Below, piece by piece: positions 3,992-61,536 of a stretch of 64,000 nucleotides of DNA. The position numbers were made by a program, and so were the translations under genes. Source of the DNA: a virus; IMG/VR virus record IMGVR_UViG_3300047557_002158, positions 4,045 through 68,044 of that record; one strand, given 5' to 3'. The notes beneath the pieces were generated by a model that was not told where the DNA came from, ran no database searches, and was given only the letters and a program-made list of their open reading frames with translations. Every line of letters starts with the position of its first letter. The stretch's first letter is position 1.

Positions 3992-6373
3992 ATGGCTAAT
4001 ACTTCAATCAGAATTAAACGTTCTACCGGAACAAGTTCACCAGCAAATTTGTTATCCGGTGAATTTGCTTATTCCTACCTATCAAATACACTGTTTATTG
4101 GTACTTCGGATGGTACTTCCACATTAAATGTTGGTGGTCAGTATTATACCAGTCAAGTAGATCAAGCAACAGATGCTGCTACCGCACTTAAATTGGTTCG
4201 TAGAGATGCAGGTGGTAATGCTTCTTTCAACTATGTTTTTGCAAATATTGTTGGTACTATTATTGGAAATGCAAATAGTGCCACACAATTATTGAACGCA
4301 AGAGATTTCAGTATTAGTGGTGGCGACATTTCTGCATCAGCCGTTTCTTTTGATGGTACACAAAATGTAACACTAAATGCTTCATTAAATGCAGTTCCTG
4401 GTTTAGTTTCTGGTGTTTATGGTGGTACAACAGCAATTCCTGTTGTAACTGTTGCTGCAAATGGTCGTGTGATGGCTATTTCCAATACGACCATTTCCAC
4501 CTCATTTGATATAAAAGGTGACACAGGAACAGATACAGTTAATGGTGGTGATACAATAACATTTGTTGGTGGTGATGGTATTACCACCGCAGTTACAGAC
4601 AATACAGTTTCATTTGCAGTAGATACTACAGTTTTCCGTTCAAATACTGCAATGACCAAACAACTGGTTGACGGAGATGTTCAAATTTCCGGTAACTTGA
4701 CAGTTCTTGGTACAGAAACAATCATTAATGTTCAGACACTAAACATTTCTGATCCATTATTAATTTTAGCTGGTAACAATCAAACATCCGACATTGTTGA
4801 TATTGGTTTTGTTGGACACTACAATGATGGTGCAAATAGACATGCTGGTGTTTTCCGTCATGCAGGTACCAAAGAGTTCTATGTTTTTGATAATTATGGC
4901 ACAGAACTTTCTTCAAATAACACAATTGATGTTGCAAACAATACTTTCCGTGTTGCAACTCTTAATGCAAATATCAAGTCTCAATTTGCAAATGTAACTA
5001 CAGCAAATGTTGGTACAATTAACTCTAGTAGTGCAAATCTAACAAACTTAACTCTTGGTACTGCATTAGGAGTACCTAGTGGTGGCACAGGTGCAGCATC
5101 ATTCACTAGTGGTGCAATTATAATTGGTAATGGAACAAGTGCATTAACAACACTTGCTAACAGCACATACACCGCAACAGGTACTGGCGCACAAAATAAT
5201 ACAGTTACATCTGTGACCGTTGATGCCTACGGCCGTGTAACTGCTGCAACATTCCAAGCAATCTCTGGATTGACTGTTGGTCAAGGTGGTACGGGTGTTT
5301 CTTCATTCACAGCTGGTCAAATCTTGATTGGTGATGGTGCAGATGGCATCAAACAACTTGCAAATACTGGCACCGCTGGAACATACGGAAATGCAAACAC
5401 AATTCCAGTAGTTACAACTGATGTTTATGGTAGAGTTTCTGGTGTTACAAATACTGCAATCGCAATAGATGCATCACAAGTATCTTCTGGTCTATTACCA
5501 ATAAGCAGAGGCGGTACCAATAACGACACCTTCACCTCTGGTGCAGCAATATTCTTTGATGGTACCAAATTTGCGACACTTGCAAATACTGGTACTGCTG
5601 GAACATATGGTAGTTCAACACAAATTCCAGTCATTACAACTGATGCATACGGCAGAGTTTCTAATGTCACAACTGCCACAGTAAGCACTCCAGAACTTGC
5701 TAATGGATCTTACTATCTAGCAATTTCTTCTACTGACGGTACCGTTTCTTCAAATGGCGCAGGATTCTTGTTGAAGAATGGTGCAAGAATTAAAGATACA
5801 GCAGGTGATGCTGTTGCATTCGGTCAAAATGCCGGTGCATTATCTCAAGGCGGCCAAGCAGTTGCGATTGGTGATTCTGCTGGTTACAACACACAAGGTG
5901 ACTTTGCAGTTGCAATAGGTTACGGCGCAGGTAATCAAAATCAAAGTCAAGTAGCTGTCGCTATCGGTTTGAATGCCGGTATGGTTAGCCAAGGATACAA
6001 TGGTATCGCAATCGGTAATTCAGCAGGTTCTTCAAATCAAGGAACAGGCGCAATCGCCTTGGGTTATTCCTCAGGTGGTGCTGGAGGAAACTACTCAGTC
6101 GCAATTGGTTATCAAGCGGCTTCAGGAAATACAAGTTCAATTGGTGCAAATGCTATCGCATTAGGTTATAAAGCTGGTTACGAATCTGCATTTGCAGGAA
6201 GTATTATATTGAATGCTTCTGGAAACAATTTGAGTTCAGCTGCAGCAGGCCTGTATATTGATCCAGTTCGTTACACTAACGCCCAAGATTCTACATATGA
6301 TGGTCTGATGTTCTATAATTCAAGTACAAAAGAAGTTCGTTATTCATATGCATTAGACGGAGGTTCATTCTAA
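3992..6373 (+). CDS. Tail fibre protein
   Basis: IRIKRS...L.GE.AY N-terminus, repeated GTYG...IPV.T.D.YGRV fibre units, YadA-like AVAIG repeats, ends LDGGSF. Confidence 0.85.
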   Translation: MANTSIRIKRSTGTSSPANLLSGEFAYSYLSNTLFIGTSDGTSTLNVGGQYYTSQVDQATDAATALKLVRRDAGGNASFNYVFANIVGTIIGNANSATQLLNARDFSISGGDISASAVSFDGTQNVTLNASLNAVPGLVSGVYGGTTAIPVVTVAANGRVMAISNTTISTSFDIKGDTGTDTVNGGDTITFVGGDGITTAVTDNTVSFAVDTTVFRSNTAMTKQLVDGDVQISGNLTVLGTETIINVQTLNISDPLLILAGNNQTSDIVDIGFVGHYNDGANRHAGVFRHAGTKEFYVFDNYGTELSSNNTIDVANNTFRVATLNANIKSQFANVTTANVGTINSSSANLTNLTLGTALGVPSGGTGAASFTSGAIIIGNGTSALTTLANSTYTATGTGAQNNTVTSVTVDAYGRVTAATFQAISGLTVGQGGTGVSSFTAGQILIGDGADGIKQLANTGTAGTYGNANTIPVVTTDVYGRVSGVTNTAIAIDASQVSSGLLPISRGGTNNDTFTSGAAIFFDGTKFATLANTGTAGTYGSSTQIPVITTDAYGRVSNVTTATVSTPELANGSYYLAISSTDGTVSSNGAGFLLKNGARIKDTAGDAVAFGQNAGALSQGGQAVAIGDSAGYNTQGDFAVAIGYGAGNQNQSQVAVAIGLNAGMVSQGYNGIAIGNSAGSSNQGTGAIALGYSSGGAGGNYSVAIGYQAASGNTSSIGANAIALGYKAGYESAFAGSIILNASGNNLSSAAAGLYIDPVRYTNAQDSTYDGLMFYNSSTKEVRYSYALDGGSF

Positions 6374-56012: not shown

Positions 56013-56086
56013 TCCCGGATTGTGTAGTGGTAGCACAGCAGACTTTGACTCTGTTAGTATAAGTTCGATTCTTATTCCGGGTGCCA
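56013..56086 (+). tRNA. trnQ: tRNA-Gln(TTG)
   Basis: GCAGA-CTTTGAC-TCTGT anticodon arm, GTTCGA, CCA. Confidence 0.92.
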
Positions 56087-56180
56087 TATTAAAGCATGTT
56101 ATAGTGACGCATGAGCAGGTCATTAACTTCCGCTGGTTACGTCAATCGTAAGTGGGTGAAGGTAATATGCTTTAATATGG
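56084..56180 (+). ncRNA. Stem-closed structured RNA element A
   Basis: 18-bp terminal inverted repeat 56084-56101/56163-56180 (one G-U). Confidence 0.55.
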
Positions 56181-56199
56181 TAATATAAGGAGATGTACA

Positions 56200-56658
56200 A
56201 TGAAAAAAATTGTATTGTCTATATTATTGTGTATGCCATTGTTTGCAAATGCATGTAAAGGTTATGTAATAGGTTTTAAAGGTTTGAATGAATCTTTTAA
56301 TTCTGTTGCGTTTCAAAAATACGCGGATCGTTTAGGTTATTGTGGTAAATCTTTTTCCTGGTTTCAAGATAAAGAAGCATTACAGTACATTCAAACACTA
56401 AAGAAACCATATCGCCTTTATGGTTTTAGTAGAGGCGCACAGACAGTTTCGGATGTGTTAAAACAAACGAAAACAAAACCTGAATATGTTTTAACAATCG
56501 GTGCATACAAAACAACAAATGTAAATTTTGATAAACATCGTGTTCGTTATGATAACTTCTTTGATCAATCTGGTGTTGGTCAGAAAAGTCCAGGAGTATT
56601 TTTCAATGTATCTCATGCGGATATAGAAAAAGAAGTAAGTGAATTTTTGATAGAATAA
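56200..56658 (+). CDS. Secreted small alpha/beta-hydrolase-like protein
   Basis: Signal peptide MKKIVLSILLCMPLFANA; GFSRG nucleophile elbow. Confidence 0.65.
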   Translation: MKKIVLSILLCMPLFANACKGYVIGFKGLNESFNSVAFQKYADRLGYCGKSFSWFQDKEALQYIQTLKKPYRLYGFSRGAQTVSDVLKQTKTKPEYVLTIGAYKTTNVNFDKHRVRYDNFFDQSGVGQKSPGVFFNVSHADIEKEVSEFLIE

Positions 56659-56659
56659 T

Positions 56660-56751
56660 GGAAGCGTGCCAGAGCCCGGTTTATTGGAACAGTCTTGAAA
56701 ACTGTCGTGTCAGAAATGGCACCGTGAGTTCGAATCTCACCGCTTCCACCA
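56660..56751 (+). tRNA. trnS: tRNA-Ser(TGA)
   Basis: ACAGT-CTTGAAA-ACTGT, long variable arm, CCA. Confidence 0.93.
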
Positions 56752-56767
56752 ATTTTAGGAGTTTAAA

Positions 56768-57343
56768 ATGCCAGCAGTGTTTCTTGTAAGTGACACACAC
56801 TTTGGTCATGCTGGTGTGTGCCGGTTTCTTCGTGAAGATGGAACAAAACTTAGGCCATGGGATTCACCAGAAGAAATGGATGAAGCAATGGTTAAAATGT
56901 GGAACGAAACAGTTCGTCCAAATGATAAAGTTTACCATCTTGGCGATGTTGTGATCAATCGTAAAGCTCTAAGTATTTTACATAGGCTTAACGGTGATAA
57001 AATTCTGATTCGTGGCAATCATGATATCTTTAAACTTGAGGATTATACTCGACACTTTAGAGATATTCGTGGTTACCATGTGATGAACGGGATGATTCTT
57101 TCACACATCCCTGTCCATGAAGAAAGCCTTGGAAGGTTTGGTACAAACATTCACGGTCATTTACACGCTAATCGTGTCATGAAAGTGGACGAGTATGGCA
57201 CTTCATGGATTGATCCACGTTACCATTGTATTTGCGTTGAGCAAACTGATTTCCGCCCTATATTGTTTGAAGATGTGTTGAAGCGTATCAGAGAAGAAGG
57301 TGGTGGTATCGGTTTCCGTAATGGTAACGGTCCAGCAATGTGA
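56768..57343 (+). CDS. Calcineurin-like metallophosphoesterase
   Basis: SDTHFGH, HLGD, GNHD, HGHLH. Confidence 0.92.
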   Translation: MPAVFLVSDTHFGHAGVCRFLREDGTKLRPWDSPEEMDEAMVKMWNETVRPNDKVYHLGDVVINRKALSILHRLNGDKILIRGNHDIFKLEDYTRHFRDIRGYHVMNGMILSHIPVHEESLGRFGTNIHGHLHANRVMKVDEYGTSWIDPRYHCICVEQTDFRPILFEDVLKRIREEGGGIGFRNGNGPAM

Positions 57344-57347
57344 AAGA

Positions 57348-57439
57348 GGTGAGGTGCCTGAGAGGCCTAAAGGAGCGGTTTGCTAAACCGTCGATTCACG
57401 AAAGTGGGTCCGTGGGTTCGAATCCCACCCTCACCACCA
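57348..57439 (+). tRNA. trnS: tRNA-Ser(GCT)
   Basis: GCGGT-TTGCTAA-ACCGT, long variable arm, CCA. Confidence 0.93.
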
Positions 57440-57459
57440 TTTATTTTGAAAGGTAAATT

Positions 57460-57648
57460 ATGCGAGTTAAAACTGATAAAAATTTTAAGATGGCTAAAAC
57501 GACCAAACGGTTGTTGACACTTCTTCCTTTTAAGGATGAAGAACAGCGTACAGCATTTAAACATGCTATGATTGATGCACAAGTTTTGGGCAACATTGTT
57601 CCAAAAACTGTAAAAGATAAAAACTTGAGGGAAGTTGAAGCTGATTAA
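57460..57648 (+). CDS. Hypothetical basic protein
   Basis: 62 aa, AAGGT RBS, fills the gap between tRNAs. Confidence 0.65.
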   Translation: MRVKTDKNFKMAKTTKRLLTLLPFKDEEQRTAFKHAMIDAQVLGNIVPKTVKDKNLREVEAD

Positions 57649-57738
57649 CCCGCCGTAGCTCAGGGAGAGCAGGGGGTCTTATAAGCCCTTAATCTAGATA
57701 AGGTCCAGGATGTGGTTCGACTCCACACGGCGGGACCA
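57649..57738 (+). tRNA. trnI: tRNA-Ile(TAT) with long variable region
   Basis: CCCGCCG/CGGCGGG acceptor, CTTATAA loop, about 21-nt variable region, CCA. Confidence 0.8.
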
Positions 57739-57740
57739 AT

Positions 57741-57818
57741 GTGGGTGTGGCGGAGTGGTCCAACGCAACAGTCTGCAAAACTGTAAAGCCGTCAGTTCAA
57801 ATCTGACCACCCACTCCA
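57741..57818 (+). tRNA. trnC: tRNA-Cys(GCA)
   Basis: ACAGT-CTGCAAA-ACTGT, U73, CCA. Confidence 0.92.
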
Positions 57819-57824
57819 AATATT

Positions 57825-57908
57825 GTTGTTGTTCTACAACACACTGGTTGACAAAAATACCAGTTCGTGTAGAATACAATCTTGTTCTTTAAAAAGTTAA
57901 GTGTAATT
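57825..57908 (+). promoter_or_regulatory. tRNA array promoter 2: palindrome, sigma70 promoter, boxA-like block
   Basis: GTTGTTGTTCTACAAC; TTGACA-16-TAGAAT; identical 26-nt TGTTCTTTAAAAAGTTAAGTGTAATT. Confidence 0.8.
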
Positions 57909-57912
57909 TTGT

Positions 57913-57988
57913 GGACCTATCGTCTAACGGTTAGGACGCTGCCCTTTCAAGGCGGAAACGTGGGGTTCGATTCCCCCTAGGTCTACCA
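57913..57988 (+). tRNA. trnE: tRNA-Glu(TTC)
   Basis: CTGCC-CTTTCAA-GGCGG, CCA. Confidence 0.92.
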
Positions 57989-58135
57989 TTTGTTTAGTGT
58001 TATCAAGGTATCGCATATGGACGCATATGCTATGCGGGCCTAATCTGCCGGAAACAGGTCCTGAGATAACTGCATCGGCTTTGGAGAGGAAGCACCTCAC
58101 TCCTAAATTTGCACGATAACACTAAACAAATGGTA
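57984..58135 (+). ncRNA. Stem-closed structured RNA element B
   Basis: Perfect 21-bp terminal inverted repeat 57984-58004/58115-58135; internal hairpins. Confidence 0.6.
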
Positions 58136-58141
58136 ATTTGT

Positions 58142-58215
58142 GGGGGTATAACTTAGTGGTAAAGTATCCGGCTTTTAACCGGAAAACCAGAGTTCAATTC
58201 TCTGTGCCCCTACCA
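58142..58215 (+). tRNA. trnK: tRNA-Lys(TTT)
   Basis: TCCGG-CTTTTAA-CCGGA, CCA. Confidence 0.92.
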
Positions 58216-58292
58216 AAGTTTTGGGAGAATCGCTGCGAAGCGTATTCTTAAACGACCTGTAGAACTCCCAGGCGTCCCGTAGTTAGTATTTT

Positions 58293-58385
58293 GGAGGTCT
58301 TGATGCTATGGCGTGTGCATCCCCGGACTGTAAATCCGGTCCCTCGTGGTAAACATTCGCGGTTCGACTCCGTGGACCTCCACCA
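58293..58385 (+). tRNA. trnY: tRNA-Tyr(GTA)
   Basis: CCGGA-CTGTAAA-TCCGG, variable arm, CCA. Confidence 0.9.
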
Positions 58386-58625
58386 GAACGTGCCGATTCG
58401 TCACCGGCTAGTCTGACCCAGACGATGAGAAGTGGTTTGATACCCACGGGTGGTTCTGAGGCGAAGAAGCCTCACAGTAGAAATACTGCGGTCTAACCAA
58501 ACCGGCGCTGGCAATGCGAGAATCCTCTTTGGTCGTGAAGCTGATGGAGCTGTGTGTGATGGATAGTTCAAAAAACTATCTTGATGCAGTATATGGACAG
58601 CCGCAGAGAGGAAGCAACTAATTTT
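58386..58625 (+). ncRNA. About 240-nt multi-helix RNA of unknown class
   Basis: GC-rich, no credible ORF, at least six helices including a GAAA tetraloop. Confidence 0.6.
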
Positions 58626-58700
58626 GGTTCCAAAGTGTTCATGGACGCACGTATGCCTGTCACGCATAAAGAAGGGGATCGTTACCCCTTGGAACCGCCA
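58626..58700 (+). tRNA. trnD: tRNA-Asp(GTC)
   Basis: TATGC-CTGTCAC-GCATA; atypical T loop ATCGTTA; CCA. Confidence 0.9.
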
Positions 58701-58704
58701 AGAT

Positions 58705-58740
58705 TATAAATAAGATTAACAAAAAGGAGTTAATCTTATG
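58705..58740 (+). promoter_or_regulatory. Late promoter plus start-codon-sequestering hairpin of the HNH gene
   Basis: TATAAATA 58705-12; ATAAGATTAAC/GTTAATCTTAT 11-bp stem covering the ATG. Confidence 0.75.
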
Positions 58741-59070
58741 AAAAAGTGTAAATGGCACTTGTGTCAAAAAGAAACAGAAAAAACATATTGTTCAGTTAAA
58801 TGTAAAAATAAACAATCGGTGCAAAATCGAAGAAAAAATATAAAAGAGAGGTCTATAAATTATAAAGGTGGTCGTTGTGAAAATTGCGGTTATTCTAAAT
58901 GTAACGAAGCTTTAGAATTTCATCACAGAGACCCAAACGAAAAAGATTTTGGTTTATCTGCTCATGGCATCACACGTTCATGGGAAAAGGTAAAACAAGA
59001 ATTGGATAAATGTATTCTTTTATGTGCAAATTGCCATAGAGAAGAACATTTTTTAACAAAGTTAATTTGA
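58738..59070 (+). mobile_element. HNH endonuclease (putative homing endonuclease) inside the tRNA array
   Basis: CENCGY...LEFHH.DP...CILLCANCHREEH; N-terminal Cys motif YCSVKC. Confidence 0.88.
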
Positions 59071-59077
59071 ATTTTAT

Positions 59078-59154
59078 TCCCCAGTAGCTCAGTCGGTAGT
59101 AGCGTCTGCCTGTTAAGCAGAAGGTCCGTGGATCGTGCCCACGCTGGGGAGCCA
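59078..59154 (+). tRNA. trnN: tRNA-Asn(GTT)
   Basis: TCTGC-CTGTTAA-GCAGA, CCA. Confidence 0.92.
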
Positions 59155-59160
59155 TACAAT

Positions 59161-59237
59161 GCCCTCTTACTCCAATTGGTAGAGAGGACGGTCTTAGAAG
59201 CCGTAAAGTCTCAGTTCGAATCTGAGAGAGGGCACCA
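59161..59237 (+). tRNA. trnL: tRNA-Leu(TAG) lacking a long variable arm
   Basis: ACGGT-CTTAGAA-GCCGT, 5-nt variable loop, 77 nt. Confidence 0.85.
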
Positions 59238-59243
59238 TATTAC

Positions 59244-59318
59244 ACCCTTGTAGCTCAGAGGCAGAGCACCGTCTTGATAAGGCGTAGGCCGACATTTCGA
59301 AACTGTCCAAGGGTACCA
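59244..59318 (+). tRNA. trnI: tRNA-Ile(GAT)
   Basis: TTGATAA loop, ACCCTTG/CAAGGGT acceptor, CCA. Confidence 0.88.
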
Positions 59319-59370
59319 AACAACTCGCCTTGACTGATGGCGTAGAGAAGGATAAGTAATCAGTCAAATT

Positions 59371-59445
59371 GGGCTGTTAGTGCTAATGGGAACACATCTG
59401 GTTTGCAACCAGAAATTGAGAGTTCGATTCTCTCACGGTCCACCA
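59371..59445 (+). tRNA. trnA: tRNA-Ala(TGC)
   Basis: TCTGG-TTTGCAA-CCAGA, G3-U70 pair. Confidence 0.92.
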
Positions 59446-59451
59446 AATTTC

Positions 59452-59527
59452 GCTCCTGAAGCATTGCTGGCGATGCGCCGGATTTGTAACCCGGAGATAG
59501 TCTGTTCGATTCAGACCGGGAGCACCA
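59452..59527 (+). tRNA. trnT: tRNA-Thr(TGT)
   Basis: TTTGTAA loop, CCA. Confidence 0.88.
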
Positions 59528-59534
59528 ATTTTTT

Positions 59535-59610
59535 CTCCGATTAGCGTAGCCTGGTAGCGCCCCTGCTTTGGGAGCAGGTAGCGGGGGTTCGAATCCCTCA
59601 TCGGAGACCA
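59535..59610 (+). tRNA. trnP: tRNA-Pro(TGG)
   Basis: CCTGC-TTTGGGA-GCAGG, CCA. Confidence 0.93.
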
Positions 59611-59614
59611 ATAT

Positions 59615-59689
59615 GGTTGTATGACGTAGACGGATGCGTACCGCCCTCATAAGGCGAGGAGGTTGGATCGTTACCAACTACAACCACCA
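59615..59689 (+). tRNA. trnM: tRNA-Met(CAT), probably elongator
   Basis: CTCATAA loop, GGTTGTA/TACAACC acceptor, atypical T loop. Confidence 0.8.
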
Positions 59690-59691
59690 CA

Positions 59692-59766
59692 CGGTCTTTA
59701 GTTCAACGGATAGAATAATAGGCTACGAACCTATAGATGGGGATTCGATTTCCTCAGGACCGGCCA
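59692..59766 (+). tRNA. trnR: tRNA-Arg(ACG)
   Basis: ATAGG-CTACGAA-CCTAT, CCA. Confidence 0.9.
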
Positions 59767-59771
59767 AAAAT

Positions 59772-59845
59772 ATCTCGGTAGTGTAACGGCAGCACCATGG
59801 TCTCCAAAACCATTAGTGAGGGTTCGAATCCTTCCCGGGATGCCA
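59772..59845 (+). tRNA. trnW: tRNA-Trp(CCA)
   Basis: ATGGT-CTCCAAA-ACCAT, CCA. Confidence 0.92.
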
Positions 59846-59871
59846 GTATAAGTAATAGAAAGTAGGTTAAT

Positions 59872-60342
59872 ATGTTCAACAAAAAAATTGATCTTGAAGA
59901 AGTAAAAGCCTTTGTAGAGAATTGTGGTCCAGATACCAAAATTTATCTTGGCTGTGATTCTGAAAAAGTCAAAGTGAACGGTGTGTGGTATGCTGATTAC
60001 ATTACTGCTGTTGTTGTTCATATTGACAGTAAACATGGTTGTAAAATTTTTGGTCAGATTGAAAGAGAAAGGGATTTCGATCAACAAAAAAATAAACCTA
60101 GGTTGCGTTTGATGACGGAAGTTTATAAGGTTGCAGATATGTACCTAAGTCTTTCGGCAATCATAGCAAATGATATTGAAGTGCATCTTGACATTAACCC
60201 AGATATGATGCATAATTCAAGCATTGTTGTTAACGAAGCGATTGGCTACATAAAGGGTATGTGTAATGTTGTGCCTCTAGTGAAACCAAAAGCATTTGCA
60301 GCATCTTATGCGGCTGATAGACTGAAAAGTTTTGCAGCATAA
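59872..60342 (+). CDS. RNase H-like YkuK (DUF458) family protein
   Basis: IYLGCDS, RLMTEV, EVHLDIN, KPKAFAASYAAD. Confidence 0.82.
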   Translation: MFNKKIDLEEVKAFVENCGPDTKIYLGCDSEKVKVNGVWYADYITAVVVHIDSKHGCKIFGQIERERDFDQQKNKPRLRLMTEVYKVADMYLSLSAIIANDIEVHLDINPDMMHNSSIVVNEAIGYIKGMCNVVPLVKPKAFAASYAADRLKSFAA

Positions 60343-60349
60343 GTAAAAA

Positions 60350-60423
60350 GCGGGATTAGTTTAATGGTAAAACTACAGATTTCCAATCTGTTGTTGACAG
60401 TTCGATTCTGTCATCCCGCTCCA
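60350..60423 (+). tRNA. trnG: tRNA-Gly(TCC)
   Basis: ACAGA-TTTCCAA-TCTGT, U73, CCA. Confidence 0.92.
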
Positions 60424-60496
60424 TATAAAAGCACATTATCTCAGTTTCCTCATCACAAGGGTTGAGGCGAGATTAACAATAGTGTGCTTCTATATG
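60422..60496 (+). ncRNA. Stem-closed structured RNA element C
   Basis: 18-bp terminal inverted repeat 60422-60439/60479-60496 (one G-U, one mismatch); arm similar to element A. Confidence 0.5.
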
Positions 60497-60502
60497 TCTC
60501 TT

Positions 60503-60576
60503 GCGGGATTGGTTTAATGGTAAAACGAAACCTTGCCAAGGTTTAGTCAACAGTTCGATTCTGTTATCCCGCTCCA
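60503..60576 (+). tRNA. trnG: tRNA-Gly(GCC)
   Basis: AAACC-TTGCCAA-GGTTT, CCA. Confidence 0.92.
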
Positions 60577-60577
60577 T

Positions 60578-60653
60578 GGAGTTATTAGTGTAGTGGACTG
60601 CACCCCATGTTGTGACCGTGGTAGTATGAGTTCGATCCTCATATAACTCCCCA
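60578..60653 (+). tRNA. trnH: tRNA-His(GTG)
   Basis: CCATG-TTGTGAC-CGTGG, G-1:C73. Confidence 0.9.
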
Positions 60654-60657
60654 GAAT

Positions 60658-60731
60658 AGCCCGTTAGTTTAATGGTAGAACCCCGCCCTTACAAGACGGT
60701 CACGGCAGTTCGATTCTGTCACGGGCTACCA
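60658..60731 (+). tRNA. trnV: tRNA-Val(TAC)
   Basis: CTTACAA loop, CCA. Confidence 0.9.
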
Positions 60732-60734
60732 ATC

Positions 60735-60808
60735 GCTCTTATAGGTAAATGGCATACCGCATCCTTGGTAAGGATGTATCCCAAGTTCGATTCTTGGTAA
60801 GAGCACCA
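60735..60808 (+). tRNA. trnT: tRNA-Thr(GGT)
   Basis: CATCC-TTGGTAA-GGATG, CCA. Confidence 0.9.
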
Positions 60809-60810
60809 AT

Positions 60811-60887
60811 GCCGCTATGGTGAAGGTGGTCCTCACGTTGGTCTGAAGAACCAAAGAACCTAGTTCGATTCTCAGGTGGCGGCACCA
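60811..60887 (+). tRNA. trnF: tRNA-Phe(GAA)
   Basis: TTGGT-CTGAAGA-ACCAA, bulged T stem, CCA. Confidence 0.85.
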
Positions 60888-60899
60888 AAAGGAGTTTAT

Positions 60900-61094
60900 A
60901 TGTACATTTCTTCTATTCAAACATACACGGACATATATTTTGATATGATTCGTACAACAGAAAGAAAAACCATATCTAATGATAATGGTGAGAAGGTCAA
61001 AGAAATATTAGATTTTTCTTATCGTCCTTACACACATAATGGTCAATTAAATTCGACTGCACAAACAGGTCAAATTATTGATATAATGGCGTAA
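60900..61094 (+). CDS. Hypothetical protein
   Basis: ATG at 60900 after AAGGAG; ends GQIIDIMA. Confidence 0.65.
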   Translation: MYISSIQTYTDIYFDMIRTTERKTISNDNGEKVKEILDFSYRPYTHNGQLNSTAQTGQIIDIMA

Positions 61095-61171
61095 GCCCCG
61101 GTGACGGAATTGGTATACGTGTTTGACTCAAAATCAAAATTTTAGGAGTTCGACTCTCCTCTGGGGCACCA
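61095..61171 (+). tRNA. trnL: tRNA-Leu(CAA) lacking a long variable arm
   Basis: TTTGA-CTCAAAA-TCAAA, Leu-type D arm, 5-nt variable loop. Confidence 0.87.
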
Positions 61172-61172
61172 C

Positions 61173-61201
61173 TTGACAAATTACACTTAACTTTGTATAA
61201 T
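61173..61201 (+). promoter_or_regulatory. Sigma70 consensus promoter for the last tRNAs
   Basis: TTGACA-17-TATAAT. Confidence 0.85.
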
Positions 61202-61210
61202 ATCTCTATT

Positions 61211-61293
61211 GCGGGTGTGGTGGAATGGTAGACACAGGAGACTTAAAATCTCCCGCCTTAAGCGTGTGGGTTCGACTCCCGCCACCCGCACCA
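61211..61293 (+). tRNA. trnL: tRNA-Leu(TAA)
   Basis: GGAGA-CTTAAAA-TCTCC, variable arm present. Confidence 0.94.
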
Positions 61294-61297
61294 AAAA

Positions 61298-61373
<76 letters not shown>

Positions 61374-61375
61374 AT

Positions 61376-61450
61376 CCGGCTATCGTATAATGGATAATAC
61401 AAGGGTCTTCTAAGCCTTGAATGTGGGTTCGATTCCTGCTAGCCGGGCCA
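61376..61450 (+). tRNA. trnR: tRNA-Arg(TCT)
   Basis: AGGGT-CTTCTAA-GCCTT, CCA. Confidence 0.9.
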
Positions 61451-61463
61451 TAATAAATACTGT

Positions 61464-61536
61464 AGCGGGTTGGTGAAAAGGTATCACAGTGGGCTCATAA
61501 TCCTCAGTTCCGGTTCGACTCCGTGGCCCGCAACCA
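61464..61536 (+). tRNA. trnfM: Initiator-type tRNA-fMet(CAT), possibly degenerate
   Basis: Unpaired 1:72, GGG-CTCATAA, CCCGCAACCA end; imperfect anticodon and T stems. Confidence 0.7.

What the first reader, a model, noticed from the sequence alone, without database searches (positions are those of the whole stretch)
58386..58625. About 240-nt highly structured orphan RNA between tRNA-Tyr and tRNA-Asp
Seen: helices GCCG/CGGC (58392-408) and GTCTG/CAGAC (58411-23); a junction closed by TGGTT/AACCA (58451-99) holding TGAGGC/GCCTCA and CAGTA-GAAA-TACTG; and a long arm TCCTCT/AGAGGA (58523-612) containing GATAGTT/AACTATC. It would be released by processing of the flanking tRNAs. It lacks tmRNA and RNase P hallmark sequences. 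Known: T4 encodes stable non-tRNA species in its tRNA cluster, and large phage ncRNAs often sit by tRNAs. Inference: a new phage ncRNA class, perhaps a ribozyme or protein decoy.
Basis: partly seen in the sequence, partly recalled or inferred. Interest (0 to 1): 0.72.

Follow-up and report, generated by a model that had tools for sequence, protein, structure and literature searches.

The report
Uncatalogued folded RNA in phage tRNA array
The 240 bases between tRNA-Tyr and tRNA-Asp of this uncultured T4-like lake phage are a real gene for an intricately knotted non-coding RNA that many other lake phages carry among their tRNA genes; it matches no catalogued RNA and its job is still unknown.

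Summary
Confirmed and extended. The proof is comparative. I collected 86 distinct copies from uncultured phage contigs. My 49-pair structure is paired in 97.4% of cells, against 36-44% when the partners are slid. 29 pairs show changes on both sides.

The fold has:
- a 5' domain of five hairpins tied by three loop-to-strand or loop-to-loop pseudoknots;
- a 3' arm with a conserved internal loop and a kink-turn signature in 63 of 86 copies.

Its TGGTT/AACCA helix is a pseudoknot with a hairpin it missed.

Context: 48 of 85 copies start within 3 nt of a same-strand tRNA's 3' end. There is one copy per genome in 5 of 5 large genomes.

No match was found in Rfam 15, in GenBank phages or to T4 rnaC/rnaD. 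Close relatives lack it. RNA-library contigs carry it.

Function is unknown. My best guess is a trans-acting binding RNA released by tRNA processing. Earlier agents of this scan found the same family on other DNA.

The parts
58293..58385 (+). upstream tRNA-Tyr(GUA) with encoded CCA; its 3' end abuts the RNA gene
   Evidence: ARAGORN. 48 of 85 family copies start within 3 nt of a same-strand tRNA's 3' end.
58386..58391 (+). 5' leader GAACGT; C4 and T6 are invariant and G5 nearly so; no partner identified
   Evidence: Invariant columns in A2. Also kept in variants B, C and D.
58392..58408 (+). P1 hairpin (GCCG/CGGC); its loop GTCA 58400-03 forms PK3
   Evidence: All 4 pairs show changes on both sides; 100% paired.
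58411..58423 (+). P2 hairpin (GTCT/AGAC) with loop GACCC; ACCC 58416-19 forms PK1
   Evidence: 3 of 4 pairs show double changes.
58424..58431 (+). J2/3 GATGAGAA, a near-invariant purine-rich joiner
   Evidence: Part of it was fixed by the pattern used, but it is also kept in the 16 copies found through proteins.
58432..58447 (+). P3 hairpin (GTGGT/CCCAC); its loop TGAT 58438-41 forms PK3 with the P1 loop
   Evidence: P3: 3 of 5 pairs show double changes. PK3 pair 16:58 is GC 39, AU 31, GU 11, other 5.
58448..58455 (+). Bridging strand GGGTGGTT: GGGT pairs with the P2 loop (PK1) and GGT(T) pairs with (A)ACC of the P4 loop (PK2)
   Evidence: PK1 covaries in L127 and in variant D (16 of 16 readable copies are complementary: 11 U-A, 4 U-G, 1 C-G). 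PK2 is invariant in 86 of 86, so covariation cannot test it.
58456..58488 (+). Optional insertion: hairpin TGAGGC/GCCTCA and hairpin CAGTA-GAAA-TACTG
   Evidence: Absent from 58 distinct 5' domains and present in a minority of copies with varying sequence, often with a GAAA loop.
58489..58504 (+). P4 hairpin (CGGT/ACCG), loop CTAACCAA holding the invariant ACC
   Evidence: 2 of the 3 counted pairs show double changes. Coordinates.
58506..58518 (+). P5 hairpin (CGC/GCG) with conserved 7-nt loop TGGCAAT
   Evidence: Pair 158:166 is CG 60, UA 26. The last loop base covaries with the last base of J5/6 (UA 78, CG 8).
58519..58522 (+). J5/6 AGAA linking the two domains
58523..58612 (+). 3' arm: P6 TCCTCT/AGAGGA; P7a CG 58534-35/58602-03 with bulge TGAA; P7b GCTG/CAGC 58540-43/58598-601; conserved internal loop ATGGA / ATATGGA; P8 GCTGTG/TGCAGT 58549-54/58585-90
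   Evidence: Helices 9-12 are 94.6-100% paired, with 13 pairs showing double changes. Coordinates.
58555..58584 (+). Kink-turn signature (bulge TGT 58555-57, GA 58558-59 opposite GA 58583-84, T-T, G-T) leading to apical hairpin P9 GATAGTT/AACTATC
   Evidence: 63 of 86 copies have a 3-nt bulge followed by GA, opposite GA next to P8; 49 of 86 have the fuller motif. The motif definition is recalled from the k-turn literature.
58613..58625 (+). 3' tail with invariant AGC (AGCA in 85 of 86), then a U-rich run up to the next tRNA
   Evidence: A204, G205 and C206 are present in 86 of 86 and A207 in 85 of 86. 28 of 85 copies end within 3 nt of the next tRNA.
58626..58700 (+). downstream tRNA-Asp(GUC); RNase P cleavage at its 5' end would set the RNA's 3' end
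   Evidence: ARAGORN and Rfam tRNA at 39.1 bits. The processing step is inferred.

Best explanation
Window 58386-58625 (+) is an intact single-copy gene for a stable non-coding RNA. It belongs to an uncatalogued family restricted to uncultured, mostly large T4-like freshwater phages. The gene is transcribed as part of the tRNA array. The RNA is cut free by the enzymes that mature the flanking tRNAs: RNase P at its 3' side, and the tRNA 3'-end endonuclease just after the CCA at its 5' side. It folds into a compact body: five short hairpins locked by three pseudoknots, joined to a long arm that carries a conserved internal loop and a kink-turn. About 40 unpaired nucleotides are invariant, which points to a precise binding surface or pocket. 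I think it most likely works in trans as a binding RNA, that is, a decoy or scaffold for a host factor of the tRNA/translation machinery or of a defence system, and that it is an accessory, host-specific gene. Shown: the gene, the family, the fold, the strand and the context. Inferred: the processing. Guessed: the function. My sub-odds are 0.95 for a real structured ncRNA gene, 0.75 for release by tRNA processing, and 0.35 for a trans-acting binder or decoy.
For: Family: nhmmer found homologues in 16 of 160 related viral loci. An HMM gave 121 hits in 277 loci and 85 distinct full-length copies.

Fold: 49 pairs are 97.4% paired, against 36-44% when slid. 29 pairs have double changes, and 0 of 500 shuffles reach the covariation score.

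Strand: 359 G-U cells against 53 A-C cells.

Non-coding: no alignment-anchored frame is open in more than 11 of 86 copies.

Context: 48 of 85 copies start within 3 nt of a same-strand tRNA, 28 of 85 end within 3 nt of one, and 123 of 123 flanking tRNAs are on the same strand. Copies away from tRNAs have their own promoter-like sites: L180 scores 10 of 12 hexamer matches and L222 11 of 12.

Copy number: one copy in each of 5 of 5 large genomes, two of them at least 99% complete.

RNA libraries: contigs with at most 2 differences cover 58396-58533 and 58504-58662 in run X15 and 58218-58521 in run X16.

Accessory nature: it is absent from the tRNA arrays of the five closest relatives fetched.

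Analogy: in a T4-like phage evolved on a semi-permissive host, the only convergent SNP lay in rnaD, a tRNA-cluster RNA of unknown role (PMC12685909, passages seen).
Against: No discrete transcript with mapped ends was seen. The RNA-library evidence consists of assembled contigs, which may come from DNA carry-over. One contig (X16, 58218-58521) runs uncut across the tRNA-Tyr/RNA junction. The single-sequence fold is not better than shuffles. No partner is known: no gene family occurs near more than 26 of 86 copies, and there is no L7Ae-type kink-turn protein in 5 of 5 genomes. Close relatives do without the RNA. The window copy departs from the family consensus in the conserved internal loop (ATGGA/ATATGGA instead of GTGGAG/ATAATTA). 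The block GACCC...GATRAGAAGTG was fixed by my search pattern, so its invariance is overstated in A2.
Confidence: 0.55

Rival explanations
1. It is a ribozyme. It is either self-cleaving at one of its tRNA-abutting boundaries, or a trans-acting catalyst on tRNA ends or another RNA.
For: It has a compact multi-pseudoknot core with many invariant unpaired purines. An optional peripheral hairpin with a GAAA loop looks like a fold stabiliser. The 5' end sits exactly at the tRNA 3' end in 48 of 85 copies. This level of junction conservation is typical of ribozymes and aptamers (general knowledge).
Against: No ribozyme family of Rfam 15 matches at E<=10 or E<=5. The topology does not fit the classes that cleave at their own 5' edge (comparison from memory). 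One RNA-library contig crosses the 5' junction uncut. Tight packing next to tRNAs is normal for any gene in a phage tRNA array.
Confidence: 0.15
2. It acts in cis on the tRNA operon. It could be a processing or punctuation module that organises cleavage of the polycistron, or an antitermination or stability element for the array.
For: It lies inside tRNA arrays on the same strand in 74 of 85 copies (a tRNA within 400 nt). Many copies without an ARAGORN-called tRNA upstream follow a tRNA-like element ending in CCA.
Against: It is single-copy and at variable positions in arrays of 20-30 tRNAs. Some copies stand alone behind their own promoter-like site with no tRNA within 400 nt (L180, L222, L163). 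Arrays of close relatives work without it. The fold is far more elaborate than known spacers.
Confidence: 0.1
3. It is a small-molecule or ion sensing aptamer working in trans.
For: Its size, kink-turn, pseudoknots and conserved internal loops resemble large riboswitch aptamers (the comparison is recalled).
Against: No riboswitch family matches. There is no expression platform and no downstream ORF.
Confidence: 0.07
4. It is not a functional RNA. It could be chance structure, decayed tRNA genes, a minus-strand ORF (58401-58667, 88 aa) or a DNA-level signal.
For: The MFE z-score is only -1.14. A long minus-strand ORF exists in the window. The family consensus holds a TATAAT box in the internal loop.
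Against: Compensatory changes occur in 29 pairs. The G-U asymmetry favours the plus strand. No conserved open frame exists. The window copy lacks the TATAAT box yet keeps the fold. ARAGORN and the Rfam tRNA model see no tRNA in it.
Confidence: 0.03

Closest known systems
Phage T4 small stable RNAs rnaC (species 1, 139 nt) and rnaD (species 2, 119 nt)
   Same: They are non-tRNA stable RNAs encoded on the same strand in the tRNA cluster of a T4-type phage, directly after a tRNA. Their function is unknown (PMC3014915, passage seen). A host-adaptation SNP was reported in rnaD of a T4-like phage (PMC12685909, passages seen).
   Different: No sequence or structure similarity was found. nhmmer with filters off found nothing at E<=10. 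The 5'-domain covariance model scores at most 6.1 bits on the T4 region, and that on the wrong strand. T4 rnaC carries a tRNA-like T arm (read); this RNA does not.
GOLLD and ROOL large ornate RNAs
   Same: They are complex, pseudoknotted RNAs of unknown function, often phage or prophage borne and next to tRNA genes. GOLLD was first found in lake metagenomes (PMC12286853, abstract seen; the rest is recalled).
   Different: They are several times longer. No Rfam match to either was found at E<=10. Oligomer formation was not testable here.
Phage-encoded tmRNA in tRNA arrays
   Same: It is a non-tRNA structured RNA with pseudoknots that sits in phage tRNA arrays. One contig (L279) carries both a tmRNA and this RNA.
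   Different: ARAGORN and Rfam find no tmRNA features in the element: no tRNA-like acceptor or T arm and no tag reading frame.
Kink-turn-containing folded RNAs (several riboswitch aptamers, archaeal RNase P, box C/D RNAs)
   Same: The local motif matches: a regular stem, a 3-nt bulge, then tandem G-A/A-G, U-U and G-C or G-U pairs (window 58549-58590).
   Different: Only the motif is shared. No family match was found, and no L7Ae-type protein is encoded in 5 of 5 genomes.

Membership tests
Any Rfam 15 family | Covariance-model score at or above the gathering threshold | tested here: not met
   There is no hit on 58386-58625 at gathering score or at E<=10. None falls on canonical copies in 5 loci at E<=5; the weak sX4 and permuted-tmRNA hits in L181 lean on the adjacent tRNA.
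tmRNA | tRNA-like domain plus tag ORF | tested here: not met
   ARAGORN reports no tmRNA in the window. Rfam gives no hit on the element.
RNase P RNA | Match to a bacterial or archaeal RNase P model; P4 core | tested here: not met
   No RNase P family appears at E<=10. Absence of the hallmark sequence was judged by eye against recalled motifs.
T4 rnaC / rnaD | Sequence or structure homology to the T4 genes | tested here: not met
   nhmmer --max gave no hit. Model R1 with filters off scored at most 6.1 bits on the T4 region.
T4 rnaC / rnaD | Location: same strand, inside the tRNA cluster, abutting a tRNA | tested here: met
Self-cleaving ribozymes (hammerhead, hairpin, HDV-like, twister, pistol, hatchet, glmS) | Match to the family model | tested here: not met
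   None is listed at E<=10 or E<=5. Short resemblances to hairpin-ribozyme loop strands are recalled only.
Self-cleaving ribozymes | Site-specific self-cleavage | not testable with these tools
   This needs an in vitro assay. The contigs cannot show RNA ends.
T-box leader | Stem I with specifier loop, and an antiterminator with a CCA-binding bulge upstream of a gene | tested here: not met
   There is no T-box hit and no downstream ORF. The GGGTGGT strand is paired within the RNA.
Y RNA-like (YrlA) | Match to RF02553; tRNA-like module plus Ro-binding stem | tested here: not met
   The only weak YrlA hits (25.8 and 19.8 bits against a gathering score of 69) lie on tRNAs of L208, not on its copy of the element at 1111-1326.
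Kink-turn motif | Canonical stem, 3-nt bulge, tandem sheared G-A pairs | tested here: met
   The sequence signature is present in 63 of 86 copies, including the window. The geometry itself is not testable here.
New family (this report) | 5' CGU, P1-P5, PK1-PK3, 3' arm, AGCA tail | tested here: met
   The window scores 71.4 bits, E 3.4e-16, with the 5'-domain model built without it. It aligns over its full length in A2.

The most novel reading that the evidence does not exclude
The RNA is a new class of natural catalytic or ligand-binding RNA carried by phages. One possibility is a trans-acting ribozyme that works on tRNA 3' ends or on a host RNA. It would be delivered in stoichiometry with the phage's own tRNAs because it is cut from the same precursor.
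Probability: 0.12. Interest if true: 0.9.

Novelty: new variant of a known kind. Interest (0 to 1): 0.62.

Why it matters
Non-tRNA stable RNAs in phage tRNA clusters have been known since T4, but their role has never been explained (PMC3014915). This family is abundant and phage-only, and it has a fold as constrained as a riboswitch or ribozyme core. It therefore offers a well-defined, testable model for what such RNAs do. The defined helices, pseudoknots and invariant loops give direct targets for mutagenesis and probing. If the RNA proves to be a decoy against a host defence, or a catalyst, it would add a new RNA-based tool to phage-host conflict. If not, it is still a family that belongs in the RNA catalogues so that tRNA-array spacers stop being annotated as empty.

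Tried and rejected
- **Exact 37-base scan.** A scan of viral contigs with a window stretch found nothing.
- **GenBank phages.** blastn of the window region hit only the tRNAs. blastn of a canonical copy found no match in 50,697 records.
- **Species genomes.** A scan of 185,579 species genomes with a two-block motif gave 1 stretch. It is a 23-kb contig of a Haliscomenobacter MAG that looks like phage DNA, with a tRNA array and a tmRNA. This is too little to name a host.
- **Long-range helix from RNAalifold.** It proposed 5' CGT pairing with ACG. I dropped this because the window-type copies lack the ACG. That ACG instead covaries with the 3' tail as an extension of P6 (CG 72, UA 14).
- **Partner gene.** Clustering 1562 ORFs within 4 kb of 86 copies gave no family in more than 26 loci. 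The top families were a metallophosphatase, an RNase H-like protein (PF04308) and dCMP deaminase, plus antisense artefacts over tRNAs.
- **L7Ae family.** It was found in 0 of 5 large genomes, while the control genomes gave hits.
- **Minus-strand ORF.** Rejected.
- **Gap in RNA-library cover.** In the four RNA runs laid, the bins 58720-59006 over the HNH ORF had no cover, while the tRNAs and the element did. Depth figures (for example 432 in X17 over 58474-58514) sum contigs of relatives and do not measure expression.
- **Possible processing site.** An adapter-like loose end at 58521 in X16 might mark a site between the two domains, or plain fragmentation. This is undecided.
- **Literature.** Searches found no description of this family. 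PMC10690425 lists 8495 candidate structured RNAs from IMG/VR (passages seen). Its tables are supplements that I could not open, so the family may be listed there under a number.
- **Recalled resemblances.** These were a T-box-like GGGTGGTA, hairpin-ribozyme-like loop strands, an exposed GGAG as a Shine-Dalgarno or RegB-type site, and a TATAAT box. They were leads only. The Rfam tests were negative and the rest were not tested.

Full report
**What is in the window.** The window is part of a 68-kb IMG/VR virus record, estimated 41% complete. It encodes a T4-type structural and replication module: large terminase, tail sheath, portal, scaffold, major head protein, helicase and an SbcC-like nuclease. 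ARAGORN finds 29 tRNA genes at 56013-61536, all on the plus strand. The finding fills the whole gap between tRNA-Tyr (58293-58385, CCA encoded) and tRNA-Asp (58626-58700). Taken alone, the sequence does not fold better than dinucleotide shuffles (z -1.14 on plus, -1.65 on minus). So the single-sequence observation is real but is not, by itself, more than chance.

**Relatives.** I pulled 160 loci from related viral contigs through two proteins of the tRNA region: an RNase H-like PF04308 protein and a metallophosphatase.
- nhmmer with the 240 bases hit 16 of the 160 loci. A covariance model later found the same 16.
- In every hit the match lay in a tRNA array, on the tRNA strand, and between different tRNA pairs.
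- An HMM confirmed 121 hits in 277 loci and 85 distinct full-length copies of 175-275 nt, median 210.
- 48 of 85 start within 3 nt of a same-strand tRNA's 3' end. 28 of 85 end within 3 nt of the next tRNA. 22 do both. 74 have a tRNA within 400 nt. All 123 flanking tRNAs are on the same strand.
- Several copies without a called tRNA upstream follow a tRNA-like element ending in CCA. A few stand behind a strong promoter-like site (L180, L222, L163).
- Each of five large genomes, two of them at least 99% complete, holds exactly one copy.

**The fold.** RNAalifold on 14 sequences predicted 41 pairs, 24 with compensatory changes. On 86 distinct sequences (A2) I specified the structure by hand and counted it.
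- 49 pairs are 97.4% paired, against 35.6-43.8% when the partners are slid by 1-3 columns.
- 29 pairs have changes on both sides, covering 602 such cells.
- No shuffle of 500 reaches the covariation score (a first version is).

The 5' domain runs as follows:
- an invariant CGU;
- P1;
- UA;
- P2 with loop GACCC;
- the joiner GAUGAGAA;
- P3;
- the strand GGGUGGU;
- P4, with ACC in its loop;
- P5, with loop UGGCAAU;
- AGAA.

Three pseudoknots tie the 5' domain together:
- **PK1** joins the P2 loop (ACCC) to GGGU. It covaries in L127. In a separate subfamily, 16 of 16 readable copies are complementary: 11 U-A, 4 U-G and 1 C-G.
- **PK2** joins GGU to the ACC of the P4 loop. It is invariant, so covariation cannot test it. 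In the subfamily that lacks P4, a GGU and an ACC form the arms of a plain hairpin, which is consistent but not proof.
- **PK3** joins the P1 loop to the P3 loop. Its first pair is GC 39, AU 31, GU 11, other 5.

A mutual-information scan added further contacts:
- a pair extending P6;
- a pair between the 5' side of P6 and the 3' tail (CG 72, UA 14);
- a lone U-A to C-G covariation between the last P5-loop base and the last base of AGAA (78 and 8).

The 3' arm is P6, P7a with a 4-nt purine bulge, P7b, a conserved asymmetric internal loop, and P8. In 63 of 86 copies, the window included, a kink-turn signature and a variable apical hairpin follow. An invariant AGCA follows the arm.

G-U pairs outnumber A-C cells by 359 to 53, so the plus strand is the RNA. 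No reading frame anchored to the alignment is open in more than 11 of 86 copies. The 88-aa minus-strand ORF of the window is therefore a chance frame.

**How the window copy compares.**
- It has all the elements (coordinates).
- It scores 71.4 bits with a 5'-domain model built without it.
- The window belongs to a minority subtype with a continuous P6.
- Its internal loop is altered (ATGGA/ATATGGA instead of GTGGAG/ATAATTA), but it keeps the invariant GGAG.

**What it is not.**
- Rfam 15 gives nothing on the element at gathering score or at E<=10, and nothing on canonical copies at E<=5. ARAGORN sees no tmRNA.
- T4's rnaC and rnaD occupy the same kind of place but show no similarity by nhmmer with filters off or by the covariance model with filters off.
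- No GenBank phage record holds it.
- Among 185,579 species genomes, the two-block motif found one stretch, on a phage-like MAG contig that also carries a tmRNA.
- Variants exist with the same 5' core but other 3' parts: types B, C and D.

**Expression.** Twenty listed sequencing runs from 13 studies of freshwater or aquatic metagenomes hold part of the stretch. Six of them are RNA libraries. I laid four RNA runs.
- Contigs with at most 2 differences cover 58396-58533 and 58504-58662 in X15.
- A contig with 1 difference covers 58218-58521 in X16.
- Contigs of relatives cover the conserved core in X17 and X18.

These are assembled contigs. They show presence in RNA libraries of several studies, but not ends, strand or level. 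DNA carry-over cannot be excluded. The X16 contig crosses the tRNA-Tyr junction uncut.

**Distribution.** The five contigs closest by the RNase H-like protein (78-92% identity) have no copy. L004 has a 27-tRNA array in which the Tyr-Asp slot holds 249 unrelated bases. The gene is therefore accessory and patchy. No neighbouring protein family is shared by more than 26 of 86 loci. No L7Ae-type protein is encoded in five genomes.

**How it probably works.**
- Shown: a conserved, single-copy, plus-strand, non-coding gene with a rigidly constrained multi-pseudoknot fold. It sits so that its ends coincide with tRNA ends.
- Inferred from what is known of bacterial and T4 tRNA operon maturation: RNase P cutting at the downstream tRNA, and the 3'-end endonuclease cutting after the upstream CCA, release it as a stable RNA in step with the phage tRNAs. 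Where no tRNA is near, its own promoter does the job.
- Guessed: the many invariant unpaired purines, the kink-turn and the optional GAAA hairpin point to a precise three-dimensional surface. That fits a binding RNA (decoy or scaffold), a ribozyme or an aptamer.

I favour a trans-acting binder of a host factor (0.35) for three reasons. The gene is accessory and patchy among close relatives. No phage partner gene tracks it. The nearest analogue in T4-type phages was the only site of convergent change when a phage adapted to a semi-permissive host (PMC12685909, passages seen). Ribozyme (0.15), a cis role in the operon (0.10) and an aptamer (0.07) remain open.

**Novelty.** The family is absent from Rfam 15, from GenBank phages and from the papers my five searches reached. 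Earlier agents of this scan met the same family on other genomes and also left its function open. This report adds:
- the kink-turn;
- explicit tests of all three pseudoknots;
- the subfamilies with other 3' domains;
- the stand-alone promoter-driven copies;
- the absence from close relatives;
- the RNA-library contigs.

As a kind of thing, a non-tRNA stable RNA in a phage tRNA cluster, it has precedents. As a family and a fold it is new.

Noticed in passing
window 57989-58141: The 153-nt spacer between tRNA-Glu and tRNA-Lys is bounded by a long perfect inverted repeat whose left arm begins in the tRNA's CCA end (read). An earlier first-stage note on this window (e1-6182015) lists three such stem-closed cassettes.
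   Followed up: no
window 58738-59070: A small ORF (110 aa) sits inside the tRNA array, between tRNA-Asp and tRNA-Asn. It has a weak HNH endonuclease match (18 bits, below the 21.4 cut-off). It is probably a homing endonuclease, like segB in the T4 tRNA cluster. It is not conserved next to the RNA.
   Followed up: partly
L004 3227-3475: In a close relative, the same tRNA-Tyr to tRNA-Asp slot holds 249 bases with no detectable similarity to this family. This could be a different RNA gene in the same place.
   Followed up: no
L161 about 5712-5783, and L109, L112, L258, L208, L254 upstream of their copies: Elements of about 70 nt that ARAGORN does not call as tRNAs, but which end in an acceptor-like stem plus CCA or CCC, lie directly before the RNA. 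They could be tRNA mimics serving as processing handles.
   Followed up: no
L279 2244-2649: The only hit in species genomes is a 23-kb contig binned to a Haliscomenobacter MAG. It carries a tRNA array, a permuted tmRNA (ARAGORN) and the RNA directly after tRNA-Asp. It is probably phage DNA and is a weak host hint at best.
   Followed up: partly
L003 125-201: A close relative's array holds a tRNA with anticodon UUA, called tRNA-Stop by ARAGORN. It is a possible ochre suppressor.
   Followed up: no
window 59872-60342: A PF04308 RNase H-like protein (E 2.3e-16) is embedded in the tRNA array. Relatives of it lie in at least 300 viral stretches. Its role there is unknown.
   Followed up: partly
window 57649-57738 and 58293-58385: tRNA-Ile(UAU) is 90 nt and tRNA-Tyr is 93 nt. 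The general Rfam tRNA model does not list the tRNA-Tyr; only tRNA-Sec scores, at 29 bits, below threshold.
   Followed up: no
A2 columns about 312-317 (family consensus; not in the window copy): The conserved 3' strand of the internal loop reads TATAAT, the sigma-70 -10 consensus. I treat it as an RNA-level feature because it lies in a covarying arm and no -35 is conserved. A DNA-level role was not tested.
   Followed up: no
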